Shown here piece by piece: positions 6,664-28,060 of a stretch of 31,402 nt of DNA. The notes beneath the pieces are model-generated. The model ran no database searches. It had not been told where the DNA came from and was given only the letters and a program-made list of their open reading frames with translations. Position numbers and translations under genes: made by a program. This DNA comes from a virus. Taxonomy: Duplodnaviria; Heunggongvirae; Uroviricota; Caudoviricetes. How positions within the stretch are numbered: position 1 is the first letter of the stretch; every line of letters begins with the position of its first letter. The stretch spans positions 1-31,402 of the IMG/VR virus record IMGVR_UViG_2645727991_000019. The stretch is one strand, 5' to 3'.

Positions 6664-7257
6664 CTATTTGTCCCGGTTGGCTAAGGGATGACACAATTTA
6701 TTCTTTGTCGCTGATGAGGGGAATTTTTTATAGAGCGTGGACAGGCCAATATCAAAAATCAGCGCCACGCGTTGACGTGATTCACCCGCAGCCAGCAACC
6801 GTCCTGCCTGTTCCCACTCACTCGCGGTGAGCTTCGGACGTCTGCCACCAATACGACCTTTAGCTCTGGCCGCTTCCAGTCCGGCGCGTGTCCGCTCGAC
6901 AATGAGTTCTCGTTCCATTTCAGCCAGGGCACCCATCACATGAAAGAAAAAACGCCCCATCGGCGTGCTGGTATCAATAGCATCCGTCAGGCTGCGAAAA
7001 TTAACGCCGCGTTCGCGCAGTTCCTCAACCAGAATGACCAGATGCCGCATACTACGCCCCAGCCTGTCCAGCTTCCAGACCACCAGTGTATCCCCCTCCG
7101 ATAATGTCCTGAGCAGTTTTTTCAGTCCCGGTCGGTCGGACTTAGTGCCGCTGATTTTATCCTCAAAAATCAGCTCACATCCTGCGCACTCCAGCGCGTT
7201 ACGCTGCAATTCCGTGTTCTGGTCATTTGTTGACACGCGTACATAGCCAATAAGCAT
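6664..7257 (-). CDS. Serine site-specific DNA invertase (Hin/Gin/Cin/Pin family)
   Basis: From the Met at 7257 the protein starts MLIGYVRVSTNDQNTELQRNAL..., the canonical resolvase/invertase N-terminus with the catalytic Ser in the VRVST motif. A strong AGGGGGA Shine-Dalgarno sits 5 nt upstream of this ATG. It lies immediately outside the left crossover site of the invertible segment. Confidence 0.9.
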   Translation of the reverse strand: MLIGYVRVSTNDQNTELQRNALECAGCELIFEDKISGTKSDRPGLKKLLRTLSEGDTLVVWKLDRLGRSMRHLVILVEELRERGVNFRSLTDAIDTSTPMGRFFFHVMGALAEMERELIVERTRAGLEAARAKGRIGGRRPKLTASEWEQAGRLLAAGESRQRVALIFDIGLSTLYKKFPSSATKNKLCHPLANRDK

Positions 7258-7312
7258 GAGCATCCCCCTGAATAAAAACCGGAGATGATGCCAGTTGCCC
7301 GTTATCTCTGCA

Positions 7313-7338
7313 TTTTCATAAACGTTGGTTTAGGAGAA
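7313..7338. repeat. Left 26-bp inversion crossover site (hix/gix-like)
   Basis: TTTTCATAAACG-TT-GGTTTAGGAGAA is an imperfect palindrome with a central TT dinucleotide. Its right half-site matches 11 of 12 positions of the half-site at 9189..9214 in inverted orientation. Confidence 0.8.
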
Positions 7339-7836
7339 GGCTCAGCATTGCCTGTTGGCGTACCTGTTCCGTGGCCCTCAGCCACTCCGCCAACAGGCTG
7401 GCTGAAATGCAACGGAGCAGCTTTTTCTGCTGAAGAATACCCGGAACTGGCAAAGGCTTACCCGACAAATAAATTGCCTGATTTACGCGGTGAATTTATT
7501 CGTGGCTGGGATGACGGACGTGGTATGGATACGGGGAGGGCAATATTATCCGCTCAGGGCGATGCCATACGTAATATCTATGGTGAGTTCAAGACTGTAA
7601 ACACCGAAAATTATTCAATATGGGAATCAGTAGGCTCTTTTAAGGGGGCAGTGGTGCCTTTGAACCCCTCAACGAACAATAGTTATTTCTCCTTAATCAG
7701 AAGTATGGTGACAGAAAGAACAGATGGCGCTGTTTACCCAAAAGTGATTGGCCTTGATGCTTCAAGAATTGTTCCAACTGCAAACGAAAACCGTCCACGT
7801 AACATCGCCTTTAATTATATTGTGAGGGCTGCATAA
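7313..7836 (+). CDS. Silent alternative tail-fibre C-terminal cassette (Sv'-like, tail-collar motif); promoterless in this orientation
   Basis: The open frame continues in phase from the GLGE codons of the crossover site and encodes ...VPVPWPSATPPTGWLKCNGAAFSAEEYPELAKAYPTNKLPDLRGEFIRGWDDGRGMD..., the classic phage tail-collar motif of Mu S and P1 S variable fibre parts. The ORF-track start at 7285 precedes the crossover site and is probably not a real start. Confidence 0.8.
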
Positions 7837-8429
7837 TGAAACCTGTTTTTGATGAAAATGGGCTGGCTACAGTGCCGGGTGATATGCGTTGTTTTTATTA
7901 TGATGCAGTAACGTCTGAATATACGGGCTGGTCTGATGAATATATTAATACTGGCGTAAGTATGCCCGCCTGTTCCACTGGTATTGACCCGGGCGAATAC
8001 ATTCCGGGGAAAGTGGCAGTATTTACGGGTAAGGGATGGAGCCATGAAGAAGACCACCGCAATGAGACTGTTTACTCAATCGAAAATGGCGCAGCTGTTA
8101 CAGTGGATTATATCGGTGCCATCAAAGACGGTTATGTCACGCTTTCACCGTTAACGCCATACGATAAATGGGATGGTGAGAAATGGGTGACAGATACTGA
8201 GGCACAGCATAGTGCCGCACTAGACGCGGCAGAAGCACAGCGCCAGTCGCTGATTGATGCTGCAATGGCTTCCATCAGTCTGATTCAACTGAAATTACAG
8301 GCCGGGCGGAAGCTGACGCAGGCAGAAACAACCCGACTTAACGCCGTGCTGGATTATATTGACGCGGTGACGGTAACAGATACCAGCACTGCGCCGGATG
8401 TCATCTGGCCTGAACTGCCGGAGGCGTAG
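7836..8429 (+). CDS. Tail fibre assembly protein (chaperone for the silent cassette, U'-like)
   Basis: 197-aa ORF directly following the silent fibre cassette (the ATG overlaps its stop). Its C-terminal region (LDYIDAVTVTDTSTAPDVIWPELPEA) resembles the C-terminus of the opposite-strand tfa (LDYLDTLELVDTSGAPDIEWPTPP). Confidence 0.82.
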   Translation: MKPVFDENGLATVPGDMRCFYYDAVTSEYTGWSDEYINTGVSMPACSTGIDPGEYIPGKVAVFTGKGWSHEEDHRNETVYSIENGAAVTVDYIGAIKDGYVTLSPLTPYDKWDGEKWVTDTEAQHSAALDAAEAQRQSLIDAAMASISLIQLKLQAGRKLTQAETTRLNAVLDYIDAVTVTDTSTAPDVIWPELPEA

Positions 8430-8841
8430 GCCATTCAATATCTGGCGCACCGGAAGTATCGACCAGTTCCAGTGTGTCCAGATAATCCAGCCACAAATTA
8501 TATTGCGCCAGTTCCTCACCTTTCAGGCGACCAATCGCCGCTTTACCAGGCCATTGCTTACTGTTTATGTATTCGTTGACCTGATTAATCAATTGCTGCT
8601 TTTCCAGTTCGGCTGCGGCAATTTGTTCCTCATGAGTTGGCGGTGGAATATCAATCCATGCAGGCATTCCGTCGATGACACCTCTGTATTTTCCTTCTGG
8701 TGCTTCCTTCATAAATTCGGCGGCAACAGTGTCGTCAATTTCGATTCCATCATCGGGCCATTCGCCGGATTCCTGATAAGCGATTTTAAGCTCCACAGGG
8801 AAAAACGCATTTTTATCGGCACTGAAAATATATTTCTGCAT
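8401..8841 (-). CDS. Tail fibre assembly protein (chaperone for the currently expressed fibre, G/U-like)
   Basis: 146-aa ORF immediately downstream of H, converging on and overlapping the 3' end of the plus-strand tfa; it carries the conserved tfa C-terminal motif. Confidence 0.85.
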   Translation of the reverse strand: MQKYIFSADKNAFFPVELKIAYQESGEWPDDGIEIDDTVAAEFMKEAPEGKYRGVIDGMPAWIDIPPPTHEEQIAAAELEKQQLINQVNEYINSKQWPGKAAIGRLKGEELAQYNLWLDYLDTLELVDTSGAPDIEWPTPPAVQAR

Positions 8842-8843
8842 TT

Positions 8844-10028
8844 CTACCGTCCTATCGAAATATAACTGAATCTGTATTGCTGTGAGATATCACTGGTTGC
8901 CACACGCCACGCTGAATTACTGATATGTTCAAAATTTACAGACAAAACCTGCAGGGCAGGATTCGACGGGTCTGACTGAACGGCATCAGACATAACACTG
9001 ACTGAAACCATCGGCTGATTAGGGAATGGTATAGGGAAGTGTCCACTGATAAAGCGGGTCGTGTTTCCTGAAAAAGTGCCAAACTGAACAATATATCCAC
9101 CTGGTAGCCTGAACCATCCCGAACCAGAAGCGAATGCTCCCATATCCGGTATCTGATTATCTCCTGTGCCCACATCCCTTTTCGCCGCTTCTCCCAAACC
9201 AAGGTATGCGAGAAGACCAGCTACATCCTTTCCACTCAAATGAGTCAGCGTCTCATCCAGTGGCTGCTTACCTGACAGCGCATTGTTAATGGTGGCGCTG
9301 AATTTCGGGTCATTGTTGATAGCTGCGGCAATTTCTTTCAGTGTGTCCAGCGTGTCAGGGGCACCGTTAATCAGAGCGGTAATAGCGGCCTGTACAAACG
9401 CAGTGGTCGCAATCCGCGTGGTGTTATTTCCTGCGGCAGGCGTCGGCGCTTTTGGTTCTCCGGTAAATGTCGGATTATGTTTCTGTGCATACTGGGTATG
9501 AGGGTCCTGTGCGGCAATGTGGTTTCTCATCTGGTCATCCACATACAGCTTTAATTCCAGGACTTCATCATCCACGTATTTACGGGTCGCCAGTACCACC
9601 GACGGGTCGATTTTCAGCGTGATGGCTTCGGTATTCGTGACAACCAGAATCATGCGGATAGTCTGGGTACGACCGCTGCCTTCCTGCAACTGCGGTTTGT
9701 ACGTTTCCGGGCAGTTCGCCACCGCAATGAGTACGCCTTCATCATCATAAAGCCCAATCTCACGGATCCAGAATCCGCCCTCGTTCTCAGGGATGATTTG
9801 CTCCGCAATAATCTGGCTCTGGTTGTTCGGGTCAACACTCAGAAGATTCAGCGGCGCGATGCGTTTCTGGTTAATCAGTTTTGTCTGTGCCGGGTCTGGT
9901 GTCGGCAAGACACCATTCGCATCACCAACGGCCATTTGCGTCAGATTCAGCTTACTGCCGAGCATCGTCGCGTTAGCCAGCCGTGCTGCGCCCTGATTAG
10001 TCAGAATGGCGTAGTATTTCACTGTCAT
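8844..10028 (-). CDS. H: Tail fibre protein H (constant N-terminal part fused to the currently expressed variable C-terminal cassette)
   Basis: The N-terminus MTVKYYAILTNQGAARLANATMLGSKLNLTQMAVGDANGVLP... is the conserved P2-family fibre N-terminal domain. The reading frame passes through the crossover site at 9189..9214, where it encodes AYLGLGE, and continues into the variable part. Confidence 0.88.
   Translation of the reverse strand: MTVKYYAILTNQGAARLANATMLGSKLNLTQMAVGDANGVLPTPDPAQTKLINQKRIAPLNLLSVDPNNQSQIIAEQIIPENEGGFWIREIGLYDDEGVLIAVANCPETYKPQLQEGSGRTQTIRMILVVTNTEAITLKIDPSVVLATRKYVDDEVLELKLYVDDQMRNHIAAQDPHTQYAQKHNPTFTGEPKAPTPAAGNNTTRIATTAFVQAAITALINGAPDTLDTLKEIAAAINNDPKFSATINNALSGKQPLDETLTHLSGKDVAGLLAYLGLGEAAKRDVGTGDNQIPDMGAFASGSGWFRLPGGYIVQFGTFSGNTTRFISGHFPIPFPNQPMVSVSVMSDAVQSDPSNPALQVLSVNFEHISNSAWRVATSDISQQYRFSYISIGR
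9189..9214. repeat. Right 26-bp inversion crossover site (hix/gix-like) inside H
   Basis: TTCTCCCAAACC-AA-GGTATGCGAGAA; its left half-site resembles the gix/hix half-site consensus and is the inverted copy of the half-site at 7327..7338. Confidence 0.8.
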
Positions 10029-12598: not shown

Positions 12599-13354
12599 TT
12601 AGTTGTAGCACTTCTCTATAATCTTCATACACTCCTCATGAGCTAAATCATGGCTGTCAAATTCTTTATTAAAAAAGAAGAAAAACGCCTTCTTAACCTG
12701 AGGCATTTCAATAAAAATAAATTCATCAACCTTATGAAAGAAATGAAAACTCTTGTTTGATGTTTCAAAAACCATCAAAGAATTATGTTTTTTATCCTTC
12801 CATTTCGACATCAGATTGCGTCGCGATTTTCTTATAATCCTGAAGACATCCTCCGGTGTCGTATCGACATTCCCCCAAAACATTGCAACCGGGAAGTTTG
12901 CAAGGAAAGGGATATAATCCCCCCCTTTATACCTGAGAAAGCGGGTCCGTAAATCCATTAATTGCAACTTAAAGCCCATGTATTGCAACCACCATATGAT
13001 GCAGTCATATTCATAATCTGTTAACTCATCGCCCCTCTTTTCCGTAAGAAATTTCTTCAGGTTATACTCAAACGCTCCCAGCAAATCAGAATTGCACACT
13101 CTGCATGCTGGTACAGTAGCTTTAATGTAATGAGTTGACTGATTATTCTTTTTATTAATTAAAGATTTTTCAGCATTTGACTCAAAGGCCCACTGAGGAA
13201 TAATGTGCTCACGAGTAATATCGTCAGAACTCCCGCATAACACACATATATCAGCATTATGGTCAGCAATAATACAATCCATAACTTTCTTTTGAGAATG
13301 CTTTACTCTTTTTCTCAAAATGGAAAACTTTTTATCCACAAACACCCGTCTCAT
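12599..13354 (-). CDS. AT-rich accessory gene encoding an HNH-motif nuclease-like protein, at the S-V junction (P2 orf30 position)
   Basis: The protein contains CVLCGSSDDITREHIIPQWAF ... CRVCNSDL, i.e. CxxC, (D/E)HIxPQ and CxxCN, the HNH beta-beta-alpha-metal signature (compare Cas9 HNH DHIVPQSF). GC content is markedly lower than in flanking genes. Its start ATG overlaps the S stop codon (ATGA). An alternative start at the internal Met (MDCIIADH..., 13282) is possible. Confidence 0.7.
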   Translation of the reverse strand: MRRVFVDKKFSILRKRVKHSQKKVMDCIIADHNADICVLCGSSDDITREHIIPQWAFESNAEKSLINKKNNQSTHYIKATVPACRVCNSDLLGAFEYNLKKFLTEKRGDELTDYEYDCIIWWLQYMGFKLQLMDLRTRFLRYKGGDYIPFLANFPVAMFWGNVDTTPEDVFRIIRKSRRNLMSKWKDKKHNSLMVFETSNKSFHFFHKVDEFIFIEMPQVKKAFFFFFNKEFDSHDLAHEECMKIIEKCYN

Positions 13355-19557: not shown

Positions 19558-19730
19558 TGTCAGGAGTCCTGAATAGTGATTAGAGGAGTCACATGTCGGC
19601 ATCAGTTTCCCGACGATGCGCATCCTCCGCCATCAGTCCCGGATGGCTTATCACTGACACAACAGCACCTTAGCGAATCGCGGGGCGCGACTCAGTAGCC
19701 TTGCCGTGTATTCATCACGGCGAGGTATTC
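19558..19730. promoter_or_regulatory. Divergent late promoter region between O and P (expected Ogr-dependent promoters)
   Basis: This is the intergenic region between the divergently transcribed O (minus) and P (plus) operons; in P2 it carries the Ogr-activated PO and PP promoters. I found no perfect TGT-N12-ACA element by eye, so exact sites are not mapped. Confidence 0.45.
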
Positions 19731-21503
19731 ATGACCATCACCACAGACACCACTCTTTTACACGACCCGCGTCGTCAGGCGGCGCTGCTGTACTGGCAGG
19801 GATTTTCCGTGCCGCAGATTGCCGCCATGTTGCAGATGAAACGCCCGACGGTGCAGAGCTGGAAACAGCGCGACGGCTGGGACAGTGTTGCCCCCATCAG
19901 CCGTGTCGAAATGAGTCTGGAAGCGCGGCTGACCCAGCTCATCATCAAACCGCAGAAAACCGGCAGTGACTTCAAGGAAATTGACCTGCTCGGACGCCAG
20001 ATTGAACGACTGGCACGGGTAAACCGCTACAGCCAGACCGGCAACGAGGCAGACCTTAATCCGAACATCGCTAACCGCAACAAAGGCGGGCGGCGCAAAC
20101 CGAAAAAGAATTTTTTCAGCGACGAGGCTATCGAAAAGCTGGAGCAGATTTTCTTTGAGCAGTCTTTCGAATATCAGTTGCACTGGTATCGCGCCGGGCT
20201 TGAGCACCGCATCCGCGATATCCTGAAATCCCGCCAGATTGGCGCGACATTTTATTTTTCCCGCGAGGCGCTGCTGCGCGCCCTGAAAACCGGCCATAAC
20301 CAGATTTTTCTGTCGGCCAGTAAAACGCAGGCGTATGTGTTCCGCGAATACATCATCGCCTTTGCCCGTCTGGTTGACGTTGACCTGACCGGTGACCCGA
20401 TTGTCCTGGGCAATAACGGCGCAAAACTGATTTTTCTCGGCACCAACTCCAACACCGCGCAGAGCCATAACGGCGACCTGTACGTCGATGAGATTTTCTG
20501 GATCCCGAATTTTCAGGTACTGCGTAAGGTGGCATCAGGTATGGCCTCACAGAGCCACCTGCGCTCGACCTATTTCTCCACCCCGTCCACGCTGGCGCAC
20601 GACGCCTACCCGTTCTGGTCGGGTGAACTGTTTAACCGGGGACGCGCCAGCGCCGCCGAACGCGTGGAAATCGACGTCAGTCATAACGCCCTTGCCGGTG
20701 GGCTTCTCTGTGCGGACGGCCAGTGGCGACAGATTGTCACCATTGAGGACGCCCTGAAAGGTGGCTGCACGCTGTTCGACATTGAGCAGCTTAAACGCGA
20801 AAACAGCGCCGACGATTTTAAAAACCTGTTCATGTGTGAATTTGTTGACGACAAGGCGTCGGTATTCCCGTTCGAGGAGCTGCAACGCTGCATGGTCGAC
20901 ACGCTGGAAGAATGGGAAGACTATGCGCCGTTTGCCGCCAATCCGTTCGGCTCACGCCCGGTATGGATTGGTTACGACCCGTCACACCGTGGCGACAGTG
21001 CCGGATGCGTGGTGCTGGCACCGCCGGTGGTGGCCGGTGGCAAATTCAGAATACTTGAGCGTCACCAGTGGAAAGGCATGGACTTTGCCACCCAGGCTGA
21101 ATCCATCCGCAAACTCACCGAAAAATATAACGTTGAATACATCGGTATTGATGCCACCGGCCTCGGTGTCGGCGTGTTCCAGCTCGTGCGCTCGTTCTAT
21201 CCCGCCGCGCGCGACATCCGCTACACGCCGGAAATGAAAACCGCAATGGTGCTCAAGGCAAAAGACGTTATCCGCCGTGGCTGTCTGGAATATGACGTCA
21301 GCGCCACCGACATCACCAGCTCGTTTATGGCTATCCGCAAGACCATGACCAGCAGCGGACGCAGCGCCACCTATGAGGCCAGCCGCAGCGAGGAAGCCAG
21401 CCACGCCGACCTCGCCTGGGCGACCATGCACGCCCTGTTAAATGAGCCACTCACCGCCGGTATCAGCACCCCGCTGACATCCACCATTCTGGAGTTTTAC
21501 TGA
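19731..21503 (+). CDS. P: Terminase ATPase (large) subunit P
   Basis: From the ATG at 19731 the protein starts MTITTDTTLLHDPRRQAALLYWQGFSVPQIA... (590 aa), with a GAGGT Shine-Dalgarno upstream. The ORF-track start at 19701 is a TTG. Confidence 0.9.
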   Translation: MTITTDTTLLHDPRRQAALLYWQGFSVPQIAAMLQMKRPTVQSWKQRDGWDSVAPISRVEMSLEARLTQLIIKPQKTGSDFKEIDLLGRQIERLARVNRYSQTGNEADLNPNIANRNKGGRRKPKKNFFSDEAIEKLEQIFFEQSFEYQLHWYRAGLEHRIRDILKSRQIGATFYFSREALLRALKTGHNQIFLSASKTQAYVFREYIIAFARLVDVDLTGDPIVLGNNGAKLIFLGTNSNTAQSHNGDLYVDEIFWIPNFQVLRKVASGMASQSHLRSTYFSTPSTLAHDAYPFWSGELFNRGRASAAERVEIDVSHNALAGGLLCADGQWRQIVTIEDALKGGCTLFDIEQLKRENSADDFKNLFMCEFVDDKASVFPFEELQRCMVDTLEEWEDYAPFAANPFGSRPVWIGYDPSHRGDSAGCVVLAPPVVAGGKFRILERHQWKGMDFATQAESIRKLTEKYNVEYIGIDATGLGVGVFQLVRSFYPAARDIRYTPEMKTAMVLKAKDVIRRGCLEYDVSATDITSSFMAIRKTMTSSGRSATYEASRSEEASHADLAWATMHALLNEPLTAGISTPLTSTILEFY

Positions 21504-22537
21504 TGAGCAAGAAAAAAGGGAAAACACCGCAACCTGCGGCAAAAAAAATGACCGCCAGCGCCCCGAAAATGGAGGCATTCACCTTTGGTGAGCCGGTGCC
21601 GGTACTCGACCGCCGTGACATTCTGGATTACGTCGAGTGCATCAGTAACGGCAGATGGTATGAGCCGCCGGTCAGTTTTACCGGTCTGGCAAAAAGCCTG
21701 CGTGCTGCCGTGCATCACAGCTCACCGATTTACGTCAAACGCAATATTCTGGCTTCAACGTTTATTCCGCATCCGTGGCTTTCCCAGCAGGATTTCAGCC
21801 GCTTTGTGCTGGATTTTCTGGTGTTCGGTAATGCGTTTCTGGAAAAGCGTTACAGCACCACTGGTAAGGTTATCAGGCTGGAAACCTCTCCGGCAAAATA
21901 TACCCGCCGTGGTGTGGAAGAGGATGTGTACTGGTGGGTGCCGTCCTTCAACGAGCCGACAGCCTTCACGCCCGGCTCCGTGTTTCACCTGCTGGAGCCG
22001 GATATTAATCAGGAGCTGTACGGTCTGCCGGAATATCTCAGCGCCCTTAATTCTGCCTGGCTGAATGAGTCGGCCACGCTGTTCCGCCGCAAGTATTACG
22101 AAAACGGCGCTCATGCCGGATATATCATGTACGTCACCGATGCCGTGCAGGATCGCAACGATATCGAAATGCTTCGCGAAAACATGGTCAAGTCGAAAGG
22201 CCGCAACAACTTTAAAAACCTGTTTCTCTATGCCCCACAGGGGAAAGCCGACGGCATTAAAATTATCCCCCTCAGTGAAGTGGCGACGAAGGACGATTTT
22301 TTTAATATCAAAAAAGCCAGCGCCGCTGACCTGCTGGACGCGCACCGCATCCCCTTTCAGTTGATGGGCGGCAAGCCGGAGAACGTCGGGTCGCTGGGTG
22401 ATATTGAGAAAGTGGCAAAGGTCTTTGTCCGCAATGAACTTATCCCGTTACAGGACAGAATTCGGGAAATAAACGGCTGGCTCGGTCAGGAGGTCATCCG
22501 CTTTAAAAACTACTCACTGGACACTGACAACGGCTGA
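21503..22537 (+). CDS. Q: Portal (capsid vertex) protein Q
   Basis: 344-aa ORF immediately downstream of P (ATGA overlap), followed by a terminator and the cos site. Confidence 0.9.
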   Translation: MSKKKGKTPQPAAKKMTASAPKMEAFTFGEPVPVLDRRDILDYVECISNGRWYEPPVSFTGLAKSLRAAVHHSSPIYVKRNILASTFIPHPWLSQQDFSRFVLDFLVFGNAFLEKRYSTTGKVIRLETSPAKYTRRGVEEDVYWWVPSFNEPTAFTPGSVFHLLEPDINQELYGLPEYLSALNSAWLNESATLFRRKYYENGAHAGYIMYVTDAVQDRNDIEMLRENMVKSKGRNNFKNLFLYAPQGKADGIKIIPLSEVATKDDFFNIKKASAADLLDAHRIPFQLMGGKPENVGSLGDIEKVAKVFVRNELIPLQDRIREINGWLGQEVIRFKNYSLDTDNG

Positions 22538-22706: not shown

Positions 22707-22725
22707 GTGCTTTCCCCGCCTCGCC
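22707..22725. other. cos site (19-nt cohesive-end sequence of P2-type phages)
   Basis: The plus strand reads GTGCTTTCCCCGCCTCGCC, the reverse complement of GGCGAGGCGGGGAAAGCAC, which I recall as the P2 cohesive end. It sits where expected, next to Q. Confidence 0.75.
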
Positions 22726-23055
22726 CGCCCGCTTCATGGGGCGGTTTTGATGCAATACATGAGCATCGTAATGCCATATCGTGACAGGATTATAGAACAT
22801 GAAGGTATACTAACTTACACATGCAAAAAAACGCACACTCAGGCATTCTCTTTGGAATACAATATGGTAAAAATATGATCATTTGAAGCTGCATATCCGC
22901 GCAGATTGAAATCAATGATGCTGCCCCTTCGTTAAGACAGCCAGGCCGCAATCTCTTGAGCTCAAGTGGACATCTAAGACAGAAAAACAATTTAAAGGCA
23001 AAGTTTTCGTAATGGTATCTTTGTCACAGCACACGCTAAAAAGGAACTAAACCTC

Positions 23056-24120
23056 ATGAGCACTCAGCAAGTCCTCAACATCCCTACAGCCGTATCGCAA
23101 GCGACCATCGAAAAATGGTTGAAAGGACTGGAACAGACAACGGAATTAGCCTTTTTTCGCCGTGTTGGCGGGCGGCATGGCTTCAATGTTACGAGCCGCT
23201 GGGCAAGTACATTGGATAACTTGAATAAAACTCTGAATGACCCATCGAAGCAAGGTACGCCTGCAAACTTTTCAAATCTCCGTTTGATTACGTTAAAAAT
23301 AATCACTAGCGTAAACCATTATTATTCAATTGATAGTATTAAATCAGGAACCATTAATTTAATACCAAATATAATCAACTACCCTCACCTCGATAAAACA
23401 TTTAGCTCAGTATTTCCAATAAAACTTGATGATAATACAGGACTTCCTTCGACTCCTGGGCATTTCATTACTTCCATCGAAAAAATGGGGGATGGTATTG
23501 CTGTAATATATTCCTATATTATTTTAAGAAAAATCCAAGGAAGGAGTAAGCTACGTAGCAATCAATATCCAGAGCAGTACTTCAACACTGTTTTCATCCC
23601 TAATGATTTAAGCCGTATAGAATATCGGGTTGATAAATCACTAGGTAAAAGAGCGTCTGAAAAAGCGATGGCAGATTTGCGCGCAAAATTTAATGAATTA
23701 CTCGTGGAACTTAATATTAAGTTAGCTGTTGAAACTATAAATTTCTACAAAGCAATTTCCAATATTTACCTTGACAAACAATATGGAAGACTTGTTCAGG
23801 TTAATTTCCTTGATCCAAATGGAGATGAGGATGCTGTTCTTCGTTGTAGAACAGACCCCAATTATGATGCCCGTTATCGCGAGGTTGTATCTAAAACTCA
23901 GAACGGAACACCTCGCTCATTGACCCTTGAAGTTTCTGGCGTTGCAGTGCGATTAGATAGTAAAGTTGCAAACGAAACAATTTCAAATGAAATTGGTTTT
24001 GAACCCAGCAAAACTGATTGGTCTACAAACAAATTTTGTGGGGATTTTTATTTTACACAAACAGCAGATCATCAGGTGCATTATGGGGTGATAAATGATT
24101 TACTCACAAGAGCGAAATAA
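23056..24120 (+). CDS. Hypothetical protein, first gene of the low-GC cargo operon (354 aa); no family recognised
   Basis: ATG start with an AAGGA Shine-Dalgarno about 10 nt upstream. Composition is AT-rich, and I see no Walker or other recognisable motifs. Confidence 0.75.
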   Translation: MSTQQVLNIPTAVSQATIEKWLKGLEQTTELAFFRRVGGRHGFNVTSRWASTLDNLNKTLNDPSKQGTPANFSNLRLITLKIITSVNHYYSIDSIKSGTINLIPNIINYPHLDKTFSSVFPIKLDDNTGLPSTPGHFITSIEKMGDGIAVIYSYIILRKIQGRSKLRSNQYPEQYFNTVFIPNDLSRIEYRVDKSLGKRASEKAMADLRAKFNELLVELNIKLAVETINFYKAISNIYLDKQYGRLVQVNFLDPNGDEDAVLRCRTDPNYDARYREVVSKTQNGTPRSLTLEVSGVAVRLDSKVANETISNEIGFEPSKTDWSTNKFCGDFYFTQTADHQVHYGVINDLLTRAK

Positions 24121-24529
24121 AAAAATGCGCTCATTAGTGTATAAACAAAGAGTACTCCTGGAGAATGCCGGAAGCTCTTCTGTTTTCATAAATAATGATT
24201 CTCACATATATTATACAAATTTACTAGAATATGTAGAGGGTGATCTTGATCGTAATATTTATACAATCCCAGTATTACGAAAAGCCATAAAAACTGACAA
24301 TTATGAACATTTGCTACGAGTTGTTCAATTTTTTAGTAGCAATACCTCTTGTTTATTTAACGTTAAATATTGCTACGAACTAGAAAACATGGAGTTTGAG
24401 GACATACAAGCTGATGAATATACCAACTATATATTAAACGGAGTTGAACCTGTAACTGCCAATGGTTCTGAAATTGAAGACTTCAATCCAAAATATCTTT
24501 CATTTTATTGCATAATAAACCTGGATTGA
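24095..24529 (+). CDS. Hypothetical small protein, second gene of the cargo operon (144 aa, or 134 aa from the Met at 24125)
   Basis: ORF overlapping the end of gene 1 by 26 nt if it starts at 24095 (GGGGTG Shine-Dalgarno-like sequence upstream), or starting 4 nt after the gene 1 stop if it starts at 24125. It ends 5 nt before the gene 3 ATG. Confidence 0.65.
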   Translation: MIYSQERNKKMRSLVYKQRVLLENAGSSSVFINNDSHIYYTNLLEYVEGDLDRNIYTIPVLRKAIKTDNYEHLLRVVQFFSSNTSCLFNVKYCYELENMEFEDIQADEYTNYILNGVEPVTANGSEIEDFNPKYLSFYCIINLD

Positions 24530-24534
24530 CTGTC

Positions 24535-25389
24535 ATGAACAAACAACAAATCACATGTGAGTTAGGCAAAAGGGTTCATTTTGAAGATGAAGCGAGTTTT
24601 ATTGAAACATTATACTCGGATATAGAAGTCATAATAAAACTAATGGAGCAATCTAGTGACAAGTATTATTGTGATGATGAAGATAAACTAAGCCATACAA
24701 TTGTAGCCTCTCTTGTACACCTAGGTTACGATGCAACCGAACAAACAAAAAAAAATGGAAGTGTGGACATAACCGTTCGTCCGAAAAATGGAGGATATAC
24801 ATGGATTGCTGAAGCAAAAATCGGATACGGGAACCAAAAAATATTCGAGGGGCTACTTCAGTTGCTTACTCGCTATGTTAAAAGAGATAATCATGCAGGC
24901 ATGGTTATCTATTATCAAAAATCAAAGTCATCTTATCATTTCAAACAATGGCTGAAATACATATACAACCATGAGTGGAAGGATTATTGTACAAAGAAAG
25001 GGTCATTAAAAAAAGCGACTCCGCTACTTTCTCATTTAAAAAGTACGGTTTGTCCGAAAGTCAAACAAGGCTGTTGTTATGCTGACATTGATGTCATCCA
25101 ACCTTCGACTGATGGTCTAAAACTTCGCTGCTTCTATATTGACGTGCATCATGACCCAATTGACAGTAGTGGTTTAAAGAATAAGTCAATCGCCTTTGGT
25201 CAAGCCCAAAATAGAATTAGAGATTTATATCACTTATGGAAGACAGGACAGTTCGACGGCAGTATGATAGATGAATTATTTGAAGAAATAAAAATATATC
25301 ATAGCAATGAACTTGACGAAGAATATGAAGATGAAGATGAAGATGAAGATGAAGATGAAGATGAAGACTCGAATATAAACTCGAAATGA
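24535..25389 (+). CDS. Hypothetical protein with a PD-(D/E)xK-like nuclease core motif and an acidic (ED)n C-terminal tail, third gene of the cargo operon (284 aa)
   Basis: ATG at 24535 (the ORF-track start at 24508 is a TTG). The motif GSVDITV followed 12 residues later by WIAEAKIG fits a hydrophobic-D ... E-x-K restriction-endonuclease-fold signature. The C-terminus reads EEYEDEDEDEDEDEDEDSNINSK. Confidence 0.75.
   Translation: MNKQQITCELGKRVHFEDEASFIETLYSDIEVIIKLMEQSSDKYYCDDEDKLSHTIVASLVHLGYDATEQTKKNGSVDITVRPKNGGYTWIAEAKIGYGNQKIFEGLLQLLTRYVKRDNHAGMVIYYQKSKSSYHFKQWLKYIYNHEWKDYCTKKGSLKKATPLLSHLKSTVCPKVKQGCCYADIDVIQPSTDGLKLRCFYIDVHHDPIDSSGLKNKSIAFGQAQNRIRDLYHLWKTGQFDGSMIDELFEEIKIYHSNELDEEYEDEDEDEDEDEDEDSNINSK
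25327..25368 (+). repeat. Tandem hexanucleotide repeat (GAAGAT)6 plus GAAGAC, encoding the (ED)n tail
   Basis: Perfect tandem GAAGAT units are seen directly in the sequence at the 3' end of cargo gene 3. Confidence 0.9.
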
Positions 25390-25524: not shown

Positions 25525-27795
25525 TTAATTAGGAAAAACACTCCCAGTTGGAATTTTTTTAAATTTATATTTCCTCCCATCGAAACATACTGTCGCACCG
25601 CGTGCTAATACCTGTGGTTCCCATTGATTCGGCGTAATACCCTCCTGAGCCAACTCGAATCTTATACGTGGCGTCTGTTCCCGTTCAGCTTTTGTCATTC
25701 GTCCTGAGGGCGCTATCTGATAAGGTTTTAATGGCTCACAGCTCTTTTGCTGGCGATTTGGTCGTGGCGCATCGTGTTTTAGTGCGCATCTGAGCACCGT
25801 CACGACTTCAGGGTCATCCCAGCCGATAACCCCGCGCTCAATCAGATTCAACACCGCTGCTGCTTGCTCAGAAGGTATGGATGTCATAGCAGGATCGCCA
25901 CCGCTAGTTAGCTTTCCACAGTTATTGACAGGACTCCGAGGCGCGGCGATGCCGCTTTTTAAAGTCAAAGGCTCAACGACCGGAACTTTCGGCACAATGC
26001 GCCAGTCCGTCGTTCTGGTGATATGAATATGACGCGCGCCGAGATGCGGCGCGTAAATGCCGACCACTCTCTCGACTTCTTCCTCGTACTCGTTAACTTC
26101 ATCCGACGGACTACGGGCAACCCTGACAGTCTGACAATCGCGCGGAACATTTGCCCCACCCTGCGCGCTGATATACAACGCAAAATCACCACTGTCTGCG
26201 GCAGCGCGTGCAGCCTCGACGCGTTCGTCAAACTCATCAGCAATGCTGACGCCGCGAGGCAATTTGCGTAGTTCACGGTAAGCCCCCATTGTCGGCAGGC
26301 CAACCGTTTTAAATTGCGGAATGCGCCACGTTGATGCCCATGCGGTAACAGCCGCGGCAGTGTCTTTCAGCGGCCTGCCGGTATCGTTATCGAGCTGACC
26401 ATCCAGTGCATAGCCATCGATGTTTTTTGAGATGTATTTCGCGATATACCCCGCAGCACCGCCCCGGTTAAGGTGTTTTGCCTGAAAACGGTTTCGCGCA
26501 GCTCCTCTTTCGTCGCCATCCTCTTTGAGCGCGTAGCGACGCATGATTTCAATAATCTGGTTACGCTGGCGTGGATTACAAAAAAGCATCATATGCCAGT
26601 GCGGCGTTCCGTCGTGGTGTGGCTCGACGACACGCAAACCGTAGACCTGTAAATCATTATCCTTGAATGCCGTTCGCATCAGGCTCCAGATATGGCAGAG
26701 ATAACGCTGCGCATCCTTTGGATTAAATGCCTCATCGTTCCAGCCGTGATTTAGCTGGACGGTTTTACTTTCGCCTTTTCCGACCTGACGTGTCGGGTGA
26801 TACTTTGACGGCGCGGTCAGCGTGATAAACATCCCCACATCACCCTCTGCTGCGGCGTAACGCTCAATACCGGCAATGGTGTTCATCAGCTCCATCCGGC
26901 GAATTTCAGGATTAGAAATACTGCCCATCACCTTACTGATAAGGTCGATGCGCTCGCCGGTTTCCCTGTTTTCGAGATCACACGATTTAAGAAATTCCAG
27001 ATTTGCCTGGCGGCGTGCACGCACATCACGAATGGCATGTTTACTGGCATAAGGAGAACGGTCTTTATTGACCTCCCCGACAGCAATCAGTAACGCCTCA
27101 TGCCAGCGCATACGCTGGCCTTTGAGCTGATGAGTCCACCACTCATCGTTAAACAGACGGGCAATGGCAGAATATGCCTGCCTCGTGGTCATCTGTCCTT
27201 TACGGTATTTTTTCCAGTAAAGCGGGGAAATATTGAAAGCACGTGCAGCGCCAGCAACATGACCATAGAGGTGAGCCTGCGCCTCATCCGTAAACAGCGA
27301 TTCTTTTTCGCCATGTGCATCCACCCAGGCATCGCTGAGTTCCTCATACATCATGAAAAGCTGCGATGAGATACGGGCGGCAAACTTTTTCAGCTCCTTG
27401 TCATTCATTCCCGGCAGGCGCGCATAGTGGTCACGCTCTGCCAGAAACAGCAACGACGCGTCGGTGTTCATTTCATGGCGCTGATTCACACGCTCAATGC
27501 GCGGCCATAAACGACGCTGAAAAGTGGATGTGAGGAAATAAAACCCGTGCACCGGGCTTTTATTGCGCCGGATGTAGTCATAGCGTGAAGTAAACAGCGA
27601 GCGCAAAAAGTAAGGCAGGCGGTTAATCGTGGATAAAACACCTTGCACCTGACGCATCTCGTCACGTGTAAGGGGTCTTTCGCGCCCGACGGCCTCGCGT
27701 GGCGCGTTCCATGCATAAGCACCGGTAAACGTCTTACCGGTGCCTGCGGCAAATGCTGACGGAGGGACAAAACGCCCGGAGGCTTTAACGGCCAT
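25525..27795 (-). CDS. A: Replication initiation protein A (rolling-circle nickase)
   Basis: Large ORF; from the Met at 27795 the protein starts MAVKASGRFVPPSAFAAGTGK..., matching the P2 gpA N-terminus as I recall it. The ORF-track start at 27837 adds 14 residues and would overlap the upstream gene by 53 nt. Confidence 0.88.
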   Translation of the reverse strand: MAVKASGRFVPPSAFAAGTGKTFTGAYAWNAPREAVGRERPLTRDEMRQVQGVLSTINRLPYFLRSLFTSRYDYIRRNKSPVHGFYFLTSTFQRRLWPRIERVNQRHEMNTDASLLFLAERDHYARLPGMNDKELKKFAARISSQLFMMYEELSDAWVDAHGEKESLFTDEAQAHLYGHVAGAARAFNISPLYWKKYRKGQMTTRQAYSAIARLFNDEWWTHQLKGQRMRWHEALLIAVGEVNKDRSPYASKHAIRDVRARRQANLEFLKSCDLENRETGERIDLISKVMGSISNPEIRRMELMNTIAGIERYAAAEGDVGMFITLTAPSKYHPTRQVGKGESKTVQLNHGWNDEAFNPKDAQRYLCHIWSLMRTAFKDNDLQVYGLRVVEPHHDGTPHWHMMLFCNPRQRNQIIEIMRRYALKEDGDERGAARNRFQAKHLNRGGAAGYIAKYISKNIDGYALDGQLDNDTGRPLKDTAAAVTAWASTWRIPQFKTVGLPTMGAYRELRKLPRGVSIADEFDERVEAARAAADSGDFALYISAQGGANVPRDCQTVRVARSPSDEVNEYEEEVERVVGIYAPHLGARHIHITRTTDWRIVPKVPVVEPLTLKSGIAAPRSPVNNCGKLTSGGDPAMTSIPSEQAAAVLNLIERGVIGWDDPEVVTVLRCALKHDAPRPNRQQKSCEPLKPYQIAPSGRMTKAEREQTPRIRFELAQEGITPNQWEPQVLARGATVCFDGRKYKFKKIPTGSVFPN

Positions 27796-28060
27796 ATGAG
27801 CTAAAAGCCTCTGAACAACGCTTGCTGAGTTGCTCAACCTGCGCGTTTAAATCAGCAAAAGACTTTGCGCTTCCGGTAAGAATATCGTGATGCATCAGGC
27901 CGGAAACGAGCTGGCTTAATTTCGGGTAATAACCAACCACCGCCAGCCATTCCTGGCCGGCGTTTTTACCGCTTTCCGCTCTCTTTTTCTCGTGGAGAAT
28001 AAACTGAAAGCTGTCACTGGTAACGACATAACGTTCGCCAATTTCGATACGAATACTCAT
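27785..28060 (-). CDS. Early-operon hypothetical protein (position of P2 orf83)
   Basis: 91-aa ORF immediately upstream of A in the early operon. Confidence 0.6.
   Translation of the reverse strand: MSIRIEIGERYVVTSDSFQFILHEKKRAESGKNAGQEWLAVVGYYPKLSQLVSGLMHHDILTGSAKSFADLNAQVEQLSKRCSEAFSSYGR

What the first reader, a model, noticed from the sequence alone, without database searches (positions are those of the whole stretch)
23056..24529. Cargo genes 1 and 2: proteins with no recognisable motifs, with overlapping or abutting coding regions
The 354-aa and roughly 140-aa proteins have no motif I can assign (no P-loop, no HTH, no obvious transmembrane segments). Gene 2 either overlaps gene 1 by 26 nt (start at 24095 with a GGGGTG Shine-Dalgarno-like sequence) or begins 4 nt after its stop (24125), which suggests coupled expression and a fixed stoichiometry. 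They could be the sensor or regulator partners of the putative nuclease in gene 3.
Basis: seen in the sequence. Interest (0 to 1): 0.5.

Follow-up and report, generated by a model that had tools for sequence, protein, structure and literature searches.

The report
Rex-like three-gene prophage defence candidate
Genes 1 and 2 are real, conserved proteins that always travel with the gene 3 nuclease as one rare, untested cassette in the defence hotspot of P2-type prophages; gene 1 is predicted to fold like the DNA-ring protein RdgC and phage lambda's RexA sensor, which suggests a DNA-sensing anti-phage system with a nuclease as its weapon.

Summary
ORFs 23056-24120 (354 aa) and 24095-24529 (144 aa; alternative start 24125) exist, overlap by 26 nt, and match no Pfam, NCBIfam, PADLOC or PHROG family.

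- **Location:** with gene 3 (24535-25389) they form a low-GC island between the portal gene/cos site and replication gene A of a P2-like prophage. This is the published P2 anti-phage hotspot.
- **One unit:** all 31 distinct relatives examined, from four orders of Gammaproteobacteria, keep the order g1-g2-g3. The g1 stop and g2 start stay within about 28 nt, dN/dS is far below 1, and the three genes diverge together (r 0.95-0.98).
- **Gene 2:** acidic, with a weak winged-helix-like core.
- **Gene 3:** carries an invariant PD-(D/E)xK nuclease motif.
- **Prior record:** Rousset et al. 2022 list the cassette as untested P2 system #145.

Best reading: a prophage exclusion system with a DNA-binding sensor (g1), an adaptor or inhibitor (g2) and a nuclease effector (g3). 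The mechanism is inferred, not shown.

The parts
22707..22725 (-). P2/P4 cohesive-end (cos) 19-mer GGCGAGGCGGGGAAAGCAC. It marks the island as the cos-proximal hotspot.
   Evidence: Exact match, with 0 expected by chance. The same 19-mer occurs in the P4 sequences of Rousset Table S2. The hotspot is described as lying between gpQ and gpA, next to cos.
22852..22879 (+). Promoter-like site (TTGGAA-16-TATGAT) about 175 nt upstream of gene 1; a possible cassette promoter.
   Evidence: Consensus scan only, 9 of 12 matches. It is not conserved in the upstream alignment of relatives, so this is weak.
23056..24120 (+). Gene 1: 354 aa, basic (pI 9.1). It has an N-terminal four-helix region (about residues 1-87, pI 10.5) followed by two alpha+beta domains with an RdgC/RexA/Iml3/Chl4-type fold. 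Proposed role: DNA-binding sensor.
24095..24120 (+). 26-nt overlap of gene 1's 3' end with the gene 2 start (ATG 24095, with GGGGTG at 24085-24090).
   Evidence: Sequence. An in-frame upstream ATG is conserved in 26 of 27 modules, at a constant 17-18 residues before the conserved Q-R motif, although gene 1's C-terminus differs between subfamilies. PGAP uses this start.
24095..24529 (+). Gene 2: 144 aa (134 aa if it starts at 24125), acidic (pI 4.7). It has an N-terminal long helix and a winged-helix-like core. Proposed role: adaptor or inhibitor between gene 1 and gene 3.
24535..25389 (+). Gene 3: 284 aa PD-(D/E)xK-type nuclease candidate (effector). The ATG lies 5 nt after the gene 2 stop; an alternative TTG start is at 24508.
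   Evidence: ORF; PGAP start; 53 homologue clusters; PADLOC PDC-S54 E 1.6e-7 and phrog_9664 E 2.6e-74; sub-threshold PDDEXK_9 in 7 and Mrr_cat in 4 of 27 members.
24766..24819 (+). Catalytic-type motif D78-(x14)-E93-A-K95 of gene 3 (VDITV...WIAEAK). Invariant E49 lies upstream and invariant Q109 downstream.
   Evidence: Invariant columns in a 27-sequence alignment reaching down to 24% identity.
25306..25386 (+). Acidic (E/D)n C-terminal tail of gene 3. Its length varies between strains and it is absent from distant relatives.
   Evidence: Translation; CDS of 855 nt in the window against 861 and 843 nt in two E. coli strains; alignment.

Best explanation
Genes 1, 2 and 3 form one prophage-carried anti-phage (superinfection-exclusion) cassette in the cos-proximal hotspot of a P2-like prophage.

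- **Gene 1** is a basic protein with the RdgC/RexA fold. It probably forms a dimer that binds DNA without sequence specificity and senses DNA ends or replication and recombination intermediates made by an infecting phage.
- **Gene 3** is a PD-(D/E)xK nuclease that acts as the effector.
- **Gene 2** is a small acidic protein with a winged-helix-like core, made in step with gene 1 through a start that overlaps or abuts gene 1's stop. It links the sensor to the nuclease or holds the nuclease inactive until the sensor fires.

**Shown here:** gene reality, strict three-gene linkage, the mobile and hotspot context, the fold prediction for gene 1, and the nuclease motif in gene 3. **Inferred:** DNA binding by gene 1, any protein-protein contact, the trigger, and the defence phenotype.
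For: **Location**
- The island lies between portal gene Q with cos (22707-22725) and replication gene A. This is the P2 hotspot that carries old/tin and other validated defence systems.
- Rousset et al. Table S5B lists this exact triplet as P2 system #145, with 14 occurrences.
- Six of 8 randomly chosen unknown-function P4 hotspot loci protected against phages in PMC13586616.

**Linkage**
- All 31 distinct modules keep the order g1-g2-g3.
- The module recurs in three P2 sublineages, at the att-int end of lambdoid prophages, in an integrase island beside EcoRII/Dcm, and beside a type I HsdR gene.
- The three genes diverge together (r 0.945-0.975) with dN/dS far below 1.

**Gene 1 fold**
- These belong to the class that the lambda RexA structure paper defines as a shared non-specific DNA-binding fold.
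- Gene 1 is basic, pI 9.1.

**Gene 3**
- The D...ExK motif is invariant.
- It hits the PADLOC defence candidate PDC-S54 at E 1.6e-7.
- It gives weak PDDEXK_9 and Mrr_cat hits.

**Coupling**
- The junctions are conserved and tight.
Against: - No experiment exists. The triplet is not among the systems tested by Rousset et al., and no paper names these proteins.
- The RdgC link rests on one method applied to a predicted structure. Foldseek against PDB found nothing at E <= 0.001. hhalign found no similarity to RdgC or RexA, and no Pfam RdgC or RexA hit appeared in any of 24 family members.
- TBP-like alpha+beta folds are common and are not always DNA-binding.
- Gene 3 reaches no curated Pfam threshold.
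- No operator-like repeats or conserved promoter were found upstream.
Confidence: 0.45

Rival explanations
1. The cassette is a tripartite toxin-antitoxin or addiction module. Gene 3 is a nuclease toxin, acidic gene 2 is its cognate antitoxin encoded just upstream, and gene 1 is a DNA-binding regulator or third component. The module stabilises the prophage or island. Any anti-phage effect would be secondary, through abortive infection.
For: - Gene 2 is a small acidic protein (pI 4.7) placed immediately before a basic nuclease core (pI 8.8), with overlapping or abutting stop and start codons.
- The cassette always sits on mobile elements.
- The three genes diverge together.
Against: - No hit to any known TA family in Pfam, NCBIfam or PADLOC.
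- No operator palindrome upstream that would allow autoregulation.
- The strictly conserved 354-aa gene 1 is not explained by a simple two-part TA module.
- This reading is not exclusive of the defence reading.
Confidence: 0.2
2. The cassette is a restriction-like nuclease complex that attacks foreign DNA directly, for example a split Mrr/type IV-like or DpnII-like enzyme. Gene 2's winged helix and gene 1's ring provide DNA recognition and loading, and no abortive or sensor logic is involved.
For: - Rousset et al. labelled the system 'DUF5939 | DpnII-MboI'.
- Mrr_cat and PDDEXK_9 give sub-threshold hits.
- One homologue is named 'Restriction endonuclease' in UniRef.
- Restriction-modification genes are neighbours in L003 and L044.
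- Mrr combines a winged-helix N-terminal domain with a PD-(D/E)xK domain (my own knowledge).
Against: - No methyltransferase is present in any of the 31 modules.
- Gene 2 is acidic, which is unusual for a DNA-reading domain.
- No Mrr_N or other winged-helix Pfam hit appears in gene 2 relatives.
Confidence: 0.15
3. The cassette serves the phage's own biology rather than immunity. An RdgC-like modulator of RecA or recombination, together with a nuclease, would tune lysogeny, induction or recombination. This resembles the RexB-independent effect of RexA on the lambda switch.
For: - RdgC inhibits RecA functions, and RexA biases the lambda switch independently of RexB.
Against: - The cassette is a rare, low-GC cargo found in only 2 of 5,426 complete E. 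coli genomes and 14 of 18,150 P2 hotspot loci.
- It recurs in unrelated phage types and in a non-phage island, so it is not part of any one phage's regulatory circuit.
Confidence: 0.08
4. The RdgC resemblance is a generic match to a TBP-like or helix-grip fold with no functional meaning. Genes 1 and 2 would then be accessory subunits of unknown type, for example ligand-binding or scaffolding subunits of the nuclease.
For: - Foldseek finds no significant PDB match.
- The Rousset label DUF5939 for one protein could not be reproduced with HMMER.
Against: - The next hits (CENP-L/Iml3, Chl4, CENP-N) are the members of the published RdgC/RexA fold class.
- Gene 1 is basic.
Confidence: 0.12

Closest known systems
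Phage lambda RexA/RexB exclusion system
   Same: - Both are carried by a prophage and sit in an accessory position.
- The first gene product has the RdgC/Iml3/Chl4-type two-domain DNA-binding fold.
- It is followed by a protein of about 144 aa.
- The proposed logic is the same: a DNA-sensing component controls a toxic effector.
   Different: - There is no sequence similarity to RexA and no Pfam RexA hit.
- The 144-aa partner is soluble and acidic, not a four-TM membrane protein like RexB.
- A third gene encodes a PD-(D/E)xK nuclease as the likely effector.
- Gene 1 is longer (354 against 279 aa), with an extra N-terminal helical region.
E. coli RdgC (PDB 2OWL), a ring-shaped DNA-binding dimer that restrains RecA
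   Same: - Both proteins are basic.
   Different: - Identity is 10%, with no profile similarity.
- Foldseek does not find it.
- RdgC is a stand-alone chromosomal gene, whereas gene 1 is always followed by genes 2 and 3.
- Ring dimerisation and the finger element were not assessed.
Rousset et al. 2022 P2-hotspot systems (old/tin, DUF4238, 'hp+hp+hp' = 3HP, DprA+PRTase)
   Same: - It occupies the same genomic slot between gpQ/cos and gpA.
- The triplet is listed there as system #145.
- Like 3HP, it consists of three proteins with no clear domain.
   Different: - It is not among the tested systems.
- It has no sequence similarity to the three 3HP proteins.
- No phenotype is known.
PADLOC candidate PDC-S54 and PD-(D/E)xK nucleases (Mrr_cat, PDDEXK_9)
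   Same: - Gene 3 residues 13-156 match the C-terminal part of the PDC-S54 profile (E 1.6e-7).
- The D...ExK motif is invariant.
   Different: - PDC-S54 is a single-gene candidate of about 410 positions.
- Genes 1 and 2 have no PADLOC match.
- The Pfam hits fall below the curated thresholds.

Membership tests
RdgC family (Pfam RdgC) | Sequence match to the family profile | tested here: not met
   No RdgC hit at E <= 10 in any of 24 gene 1 relatives. hhalign of the gene 1 profile against E. coli RdgC gave probability 0.2%.
RdgC/RexA/Iml3/Chl4 fold class | Two tandem alpha+beta domains that superpose on the RdgC centre and base domains | tested here: met
   [not shown]
RdgC/RexA/Iml3/Chl4 fold class | Dimer with a basic DNA-binding pore or surface; non-specific DNA binding | not testable with these tools
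   No multimer prediction or electrostatics was available. Only the bulk pI of 9.1 is known.
Lambda Rex system (RexA + RexB) | Sequence membership in the RexA family | tested here: not met
   hhalign against lambda RexA gave probability 0.2%. There is no Pfam RexA hit and no match to the P4 RexA-like protein.
Lambda Rex system (RexA + RexB) | Partner is a polytopic membrane protein (RexB, 4 TM) acting as effector | tested here: not met
   Genes 2 and 3 have no hydrophobic segment; the maximum 19-residue Kyte-Doolittle mean is 0.72-0.78.
PD-(D/E)xK nuclease superfamily (gene 3) | Conserved D ... (D/E)-x-K catalytic motif on a beta-hairpin core | tested here: met
   D78, E93, K95 (plus E49 and Q109) are invariant in 27 sequences down to 24% identity.
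PD-(D/E)xK nuclease superfamily (gene 3) | Profile match above the curated threshold, or a fold match | tested here: inconclusive
   PDDEXK_9 hits 7 and Mrr_cat hits 4 of 27 members, but only at E 0.01-0.04, below the gathering score. There is no PDB sequence match.
Winged-helix (wHTH) domains (gene 2) | H1-H2-H3 plus beta-hairpin wing topology with a significant fold match | tested here: inconclusive
   [not shown]
P2 cos-proximal defence hotspot cargo (Rousset et al. 2022) | Located between gpQ/cos and gpA of a P2-like prophage, and variable between relatives | tested here: met
   Portal at 21503-22537, cos at 22707-22725, gpA at 25525-27837. GC drops to 34-38%. The triplet is listed as system #145.
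Rst_3HP (validated 'hp+hp+hp' P2 system) | Homology to the three pFR109 proteins | tested here: not met
   hmmsearch with the three profiles against the pFR109 proteins gave bit scores <= 3. The sequences came from Table S2A.
Anti-phage defence system (functional class) | Measured protection against phage infection | not testable with these tools
   The cassette is not in the tested sets of Rousset et al., and no paper names the proteins.

The most novel reading that the evidence does not exclude
The cassette is a new type of Rex-like immune system. An RdgC/RexA-fold protein encircles or binds phage DNA, or replication and recombination intermediates. Through a small acidic winged-helix partner, it then licenses a PD-(D/E)xK nuclease instead of a membrane channel. 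This would establish the RdgC fold as a recurrent, modular DNA sensor in bacterial immunity that can be wired to different effectors.
Probability: 0.3. Interest if true: 0.7.

Novelty: new variant of a known kind. Interest (0 to 1): 0.55.

Why it matters
P2 and P4 hotspots are a proven source of new anti-phage systems, but this triplet has only been catalogued as three hypothetical proteins.

- A fold-level link between gene 1 and RdgC/RexA gives the cassette a testable mechanism: a DNA-sensing subunit, an adaptor and a nuclease effector.
- The trigger and mechanism of the lambda Rex system have been debated for decades. A soluble, nuclease-coupled relative could be far easier to reconstitute in vitro than the membrane-bound RexAB pair.
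- The system is rare: 27 clusters among 1.84 billion representative proteins and 2 of 185,579 species-representative genomes. Its function would therefore be missed by abundance-based discovery.

Tried and rejected
- **Family libraries for genes 1 and 2.** Pfam, NCBIfam, PADLOC and PHROGs gave nothing.
- **PDB sequence searches with profiles.** Nothing for gene 1, and only noise for genes 2 and 3.
- **Exhaustive HMMER with the gene 1 profile.** It returned only the family's own 27 clusters, with no bridge to a known family.
- **hhalign of the gene 1 profile** against E. coli RdgC and lambda RexA. No similarity.
- **Foldseek against PDB for gene 1.** No significant match. The afdb50 library was unavailable.
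- **Identity with the validated three-hypothetical-protein system (Rst_3HP)** or with the P4 RexAB-like pair. Rejected.
- **Phage collection megablast.** No match.
- **Operator-like inverted repeats or a conserved promoter upstream of gene 1.** None found.
- **The three RTGCA repeats at about 22821-22846.** I first suspected a cassette regulatory element. They are absent from non-P2 contexts, and similar TGCA repeats flank cos in P4. They probably belong to the packaging signal; my pattern search for them failed.
- **Literature searches** for PDC-S54, DUF5939 and the WP accessions. No papers.
- **Deciding the gene 2 start by comparison.** This is not fully resolved, because some lineages overlap and others abut.

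Full report
**1. Observation**

The two ORFs are as described. Gene 1 runs 23056-24120 (+, ATG, 354 aa) and gene 2 runs 24095-24529 (+, ATG, 144 aa). They overlap by 26 nt. GGGGTG sits at 24085-24090. A second in-frame ATG at 24125 lies 4 nt after the gene 1 stop. RefSeq annotates the same CDSs, with the overlapping start, as 'hypothetical protein' in E. coli ZH177 and A23.

Neither protein matches any model in Pfam, PADLOC, NCBIfam or PHROGs. Scanning every member of each family alignment changes nothing. There is no Walker A motif and no transmembrane-like segment. The 'no recognisable motif' statement is therefore correct at sequence level.

**2. Context**

The window is a P2-type prophage.
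- Terminase is at 19701-21503 and portal at 21503-22537.
- The exact 19-nt P2/P4 cohesive end is at 22707-22725.
- Replication endonuclease A is at 25525-27837 on the minus strand.
- Cox and integrase lie further right.

Between cos and A, GC falls from about 55% to 34-38%. This low-GC island holds three plus-strand genes: gene 1, gene 2 and gene 3 (24535-25389). The position is the cos-proximal P2 hotspot that carries old/tin in P2 itself and many validated anti-phage systems (Rousset et al. 2022, PMC9122126).

That paper's Table S5 contains this very triplet. Table S5A lists it as 'hypothetical + hypothetical + hypothetical'. Table S5B lists it as system #145, 'DUF5939 | DpnII-MboI', with 14 occurrences. 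It is not among the systems they cloned and tested. Their validated 'hp + hp + hp' system, which protects against P1, is unrelated in sequence.

**3. Real genes, one unit**

- *Family sizes.* Gene 1 has 24 homologue clusters (45-100% identity) among 5.8 billion proteins, gene 2 has 12 and gene 3 has 53.
- *Rarity.* An exhaustive HMMER search with the gene 1 profile found only 27 representative clusters in 1.84 billion proteins. Only 2 of 185,579 species-representative genomes carry it, and 2 of 5,426 complete E. coli genomes.
- *Synteny.* I collected loci from genomes, IMG/VR and assemblies and searched all ORFs with HMMs of the three families. All 27 distinct modules in L001-L039, plus four distant ones from Pseudoalteromonas, Aeromonas, Photobacterium and a Citrobacter lineage, have g1, g2 and g3 in that order on one strand. 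That is 31 of 31.
- *Selection.* Synonymous sites are saturated between lineages while the proteins stay 42-77% identical (dN/dS about 0.05-0.25). Identities to the window copy correlate at r = 0.945 (g1-g2), 0.968 (g1-g3) and 0.975 (g2-g3).
- *Mobility.* The module occurs in the Q-A hotspot of three P2 sublineages (portal identity 99%, 68-80% and 45-49%). It also occurs between the tRNA attachment site and the integrase of lambdoid prophages, in an integrase island beside EcoRII/Dcm, and beside a type I HsdR gene.

This is the signature of a self-contained, horizontally mobile cassette of the kind found in defence islands.

**4. The gene 1/gene 2 junction**

- In the window's subfamily both ATGs are conserved, at -25 and +5 relative to the last base of the gene 1 stop.
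- In more distant subfamilies an in-frame ATG is kept at -22 or -19 (L006, the L037 group, L038, L042). It stays a constant 17-18 residues before the conserved Q-R motif of gene 2, although gene 1's C-terminus differs there (GVINDIL.RAK against NGLIENVISRK). The downstream Met shifts position in these lineages.
- In four of the most distant lineages (L039, L043, L044, L045) gene 2 instead starts 2-4 nt after the gene 1 stop.

The conserved property is proximity of stop and start (-28 to +5), which means translational coupling. For the window I favour ATG 24095 at roughly 0.7, but the comparison does not settle it. Genes 2 and 3 are equally tight, from a 5-nt gap here to overlaps of 4-23 nt elsewhere.

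**5. What the proteins are**

*Gene 2.* The model has pLDDT 88.8, but two of five models were poor. It is acidic (pI 4.7). It has a long N-terminal helix and a core whose best matches are winged-helix domains: the Fic C-terminal domain at 7.2, Fur at 7.0, PerR and TFE at 6.5. These scores are in the grey zone. Given its charge, I read the core as a protein-interaction module or a DNA mimic rather than a DNA reader.

*Gene 3.* Residues E49, D78, E93, K95 and Q109 are invariant in 27 sequences down to 24% identity. This is a classic PD-(D/E)xK pattern. Supporting hits are as follows:
- PADLOC candidate PDC-S54 at E 1.6e-7
- sub-threshold PDDEXK_9 and Mrr_cat hits
- the name 'Restriction endonuclease' for one homologue

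The nuclease core is basic (pI 8.8). It ends in an (E/D)n tail whose length varies between strains.

**6. Mechanism proposed**

The cassette is a prophage-encoded exclusion system built like Rex but with a different weapon. Gene 1, probably as a dimer, binds DNA structures that appear on infection, such as free ends or replication and recombination intermediates. Gene 2 is made in fixed proportion to gene 1. It bridges to gene 3 or restrains it. Gene 3 cuts DNA. Whether this degrades phage DNA directly or kills the cell (abortive infection) cannot be told.

Shown here: linkage, context, selection, the fold prediction and the nuclease motif. Inferred: DNA binding, protein interactions, the trigger and the phenotype.

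A useful prior comes from PMC13586616, where 6 of 8 randomly picked unknown-function P4 hotspot loci protected against phages. I put the specific model at 0.45, and 'some anti-phage or exclusion function' at about 0.65.

**7. Rivals**

- A tripartite toxin-antitoxin or addiction module, with acidic gene 2 as antitoxin of gene 3 (0.2; compatible with abortive defence).
- A restriction-like complex, such as a split Mrr/type IV or DpnII-like enzyme (0.15).
- A phage-serving recombination or lysogeny modulator (0.08).
- A functionally meaningless generic TBP-like fold match (0.12).

**8. Novelty**

The cassette is already catalogued as an untested P2 hotspot cargo, so its existence is not new. The new points, as far as the searchable literature shows, are these:
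- the fold-level assignment of gene 1 to the RdgC/RexA class
- the demonstration that the three genes form a strict unit across Gammaproteobacteria and across mobile-element types
- the resulting Rex-like sensor plus nuclease model

It fails the sequence membership tests for RdgC, RexA and 3HP. I therefore file it as a new variant of a known kind (prophage hotspot defence candidates with a Rex-type sensor logic), not as a member of any named family.

Noticed in passing
window 12599-13354 (-): A second low-GC (about 37%) cargo ORF of 251 aa sits among the baseplate and tail genes, in the position of P2 orf30. It has only a sub-threshold HNH_5 hit (E 0.0078) and no PADLOC hit. It may be another accessory or defence gene.
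   Followed up: partly
window 6664-8865: A serine DNA invertase (Resolvase + HTH_7, 6664-7263, minus strand) lies next to plus-strand tail-fibre tip and assembly ORFs (Collar, Caudo_TAP) in a region of lower GC. This is probably an invertible host-range segment like Mu Gin or P1 Cin.
   Followed up: partly
window 22821-22846: Three RTGCA-type direct repeats at about 11-nt spacing lie roughly 100 nt from the cos 19-mer. They are conserved upstream of the cassette in several P2 sublineages but absent in non-P2 contexts. Similar TGCA repeats flank cos in P4. They are probably part of the packaging signal, not the cassette.
   Followed up: partly
window 25306-25386: Gene 3 ends in an (E/D)n acidic tail encoded by a GAA/GAT repeat. 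The CDS length differs between strains (855 nt here; 861 and 843 nt in E. coli ZH177 and A23), and distant homologues lack the tail. It could be an auto-inhibitory or DNA-mimic tail, or simply repeat slippage.
   Followed up: partly
L004 9472-10143 and L005 9473-10144: In Enterobacter P2-like prophages the same hotspot carries two further small genes (102 and 119 aa, no Pfam hit) after gene 3. They are possibly a second mini-system.
   Followed up: no
L042 1-4295 and L043 1-3878: In Pseudoalteromonas and Aeromonas the cassette is preceded by a conserved trio of large unknown genes (about 550, 660-700 and 150 aa; one has DUF6892). This may be another co-travelling candidate system.
   Followed up: no
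L001 4062-4646 and 8629-9826: In E. coli ZH177 the P2-like prophage is badly decayed: baseplate V, terminase, gpA and the repressor are truncated. The three-gene cassette is nevertheless intact, which is consistent with selection keeping the cargo after the phage died.
   Followed up: no
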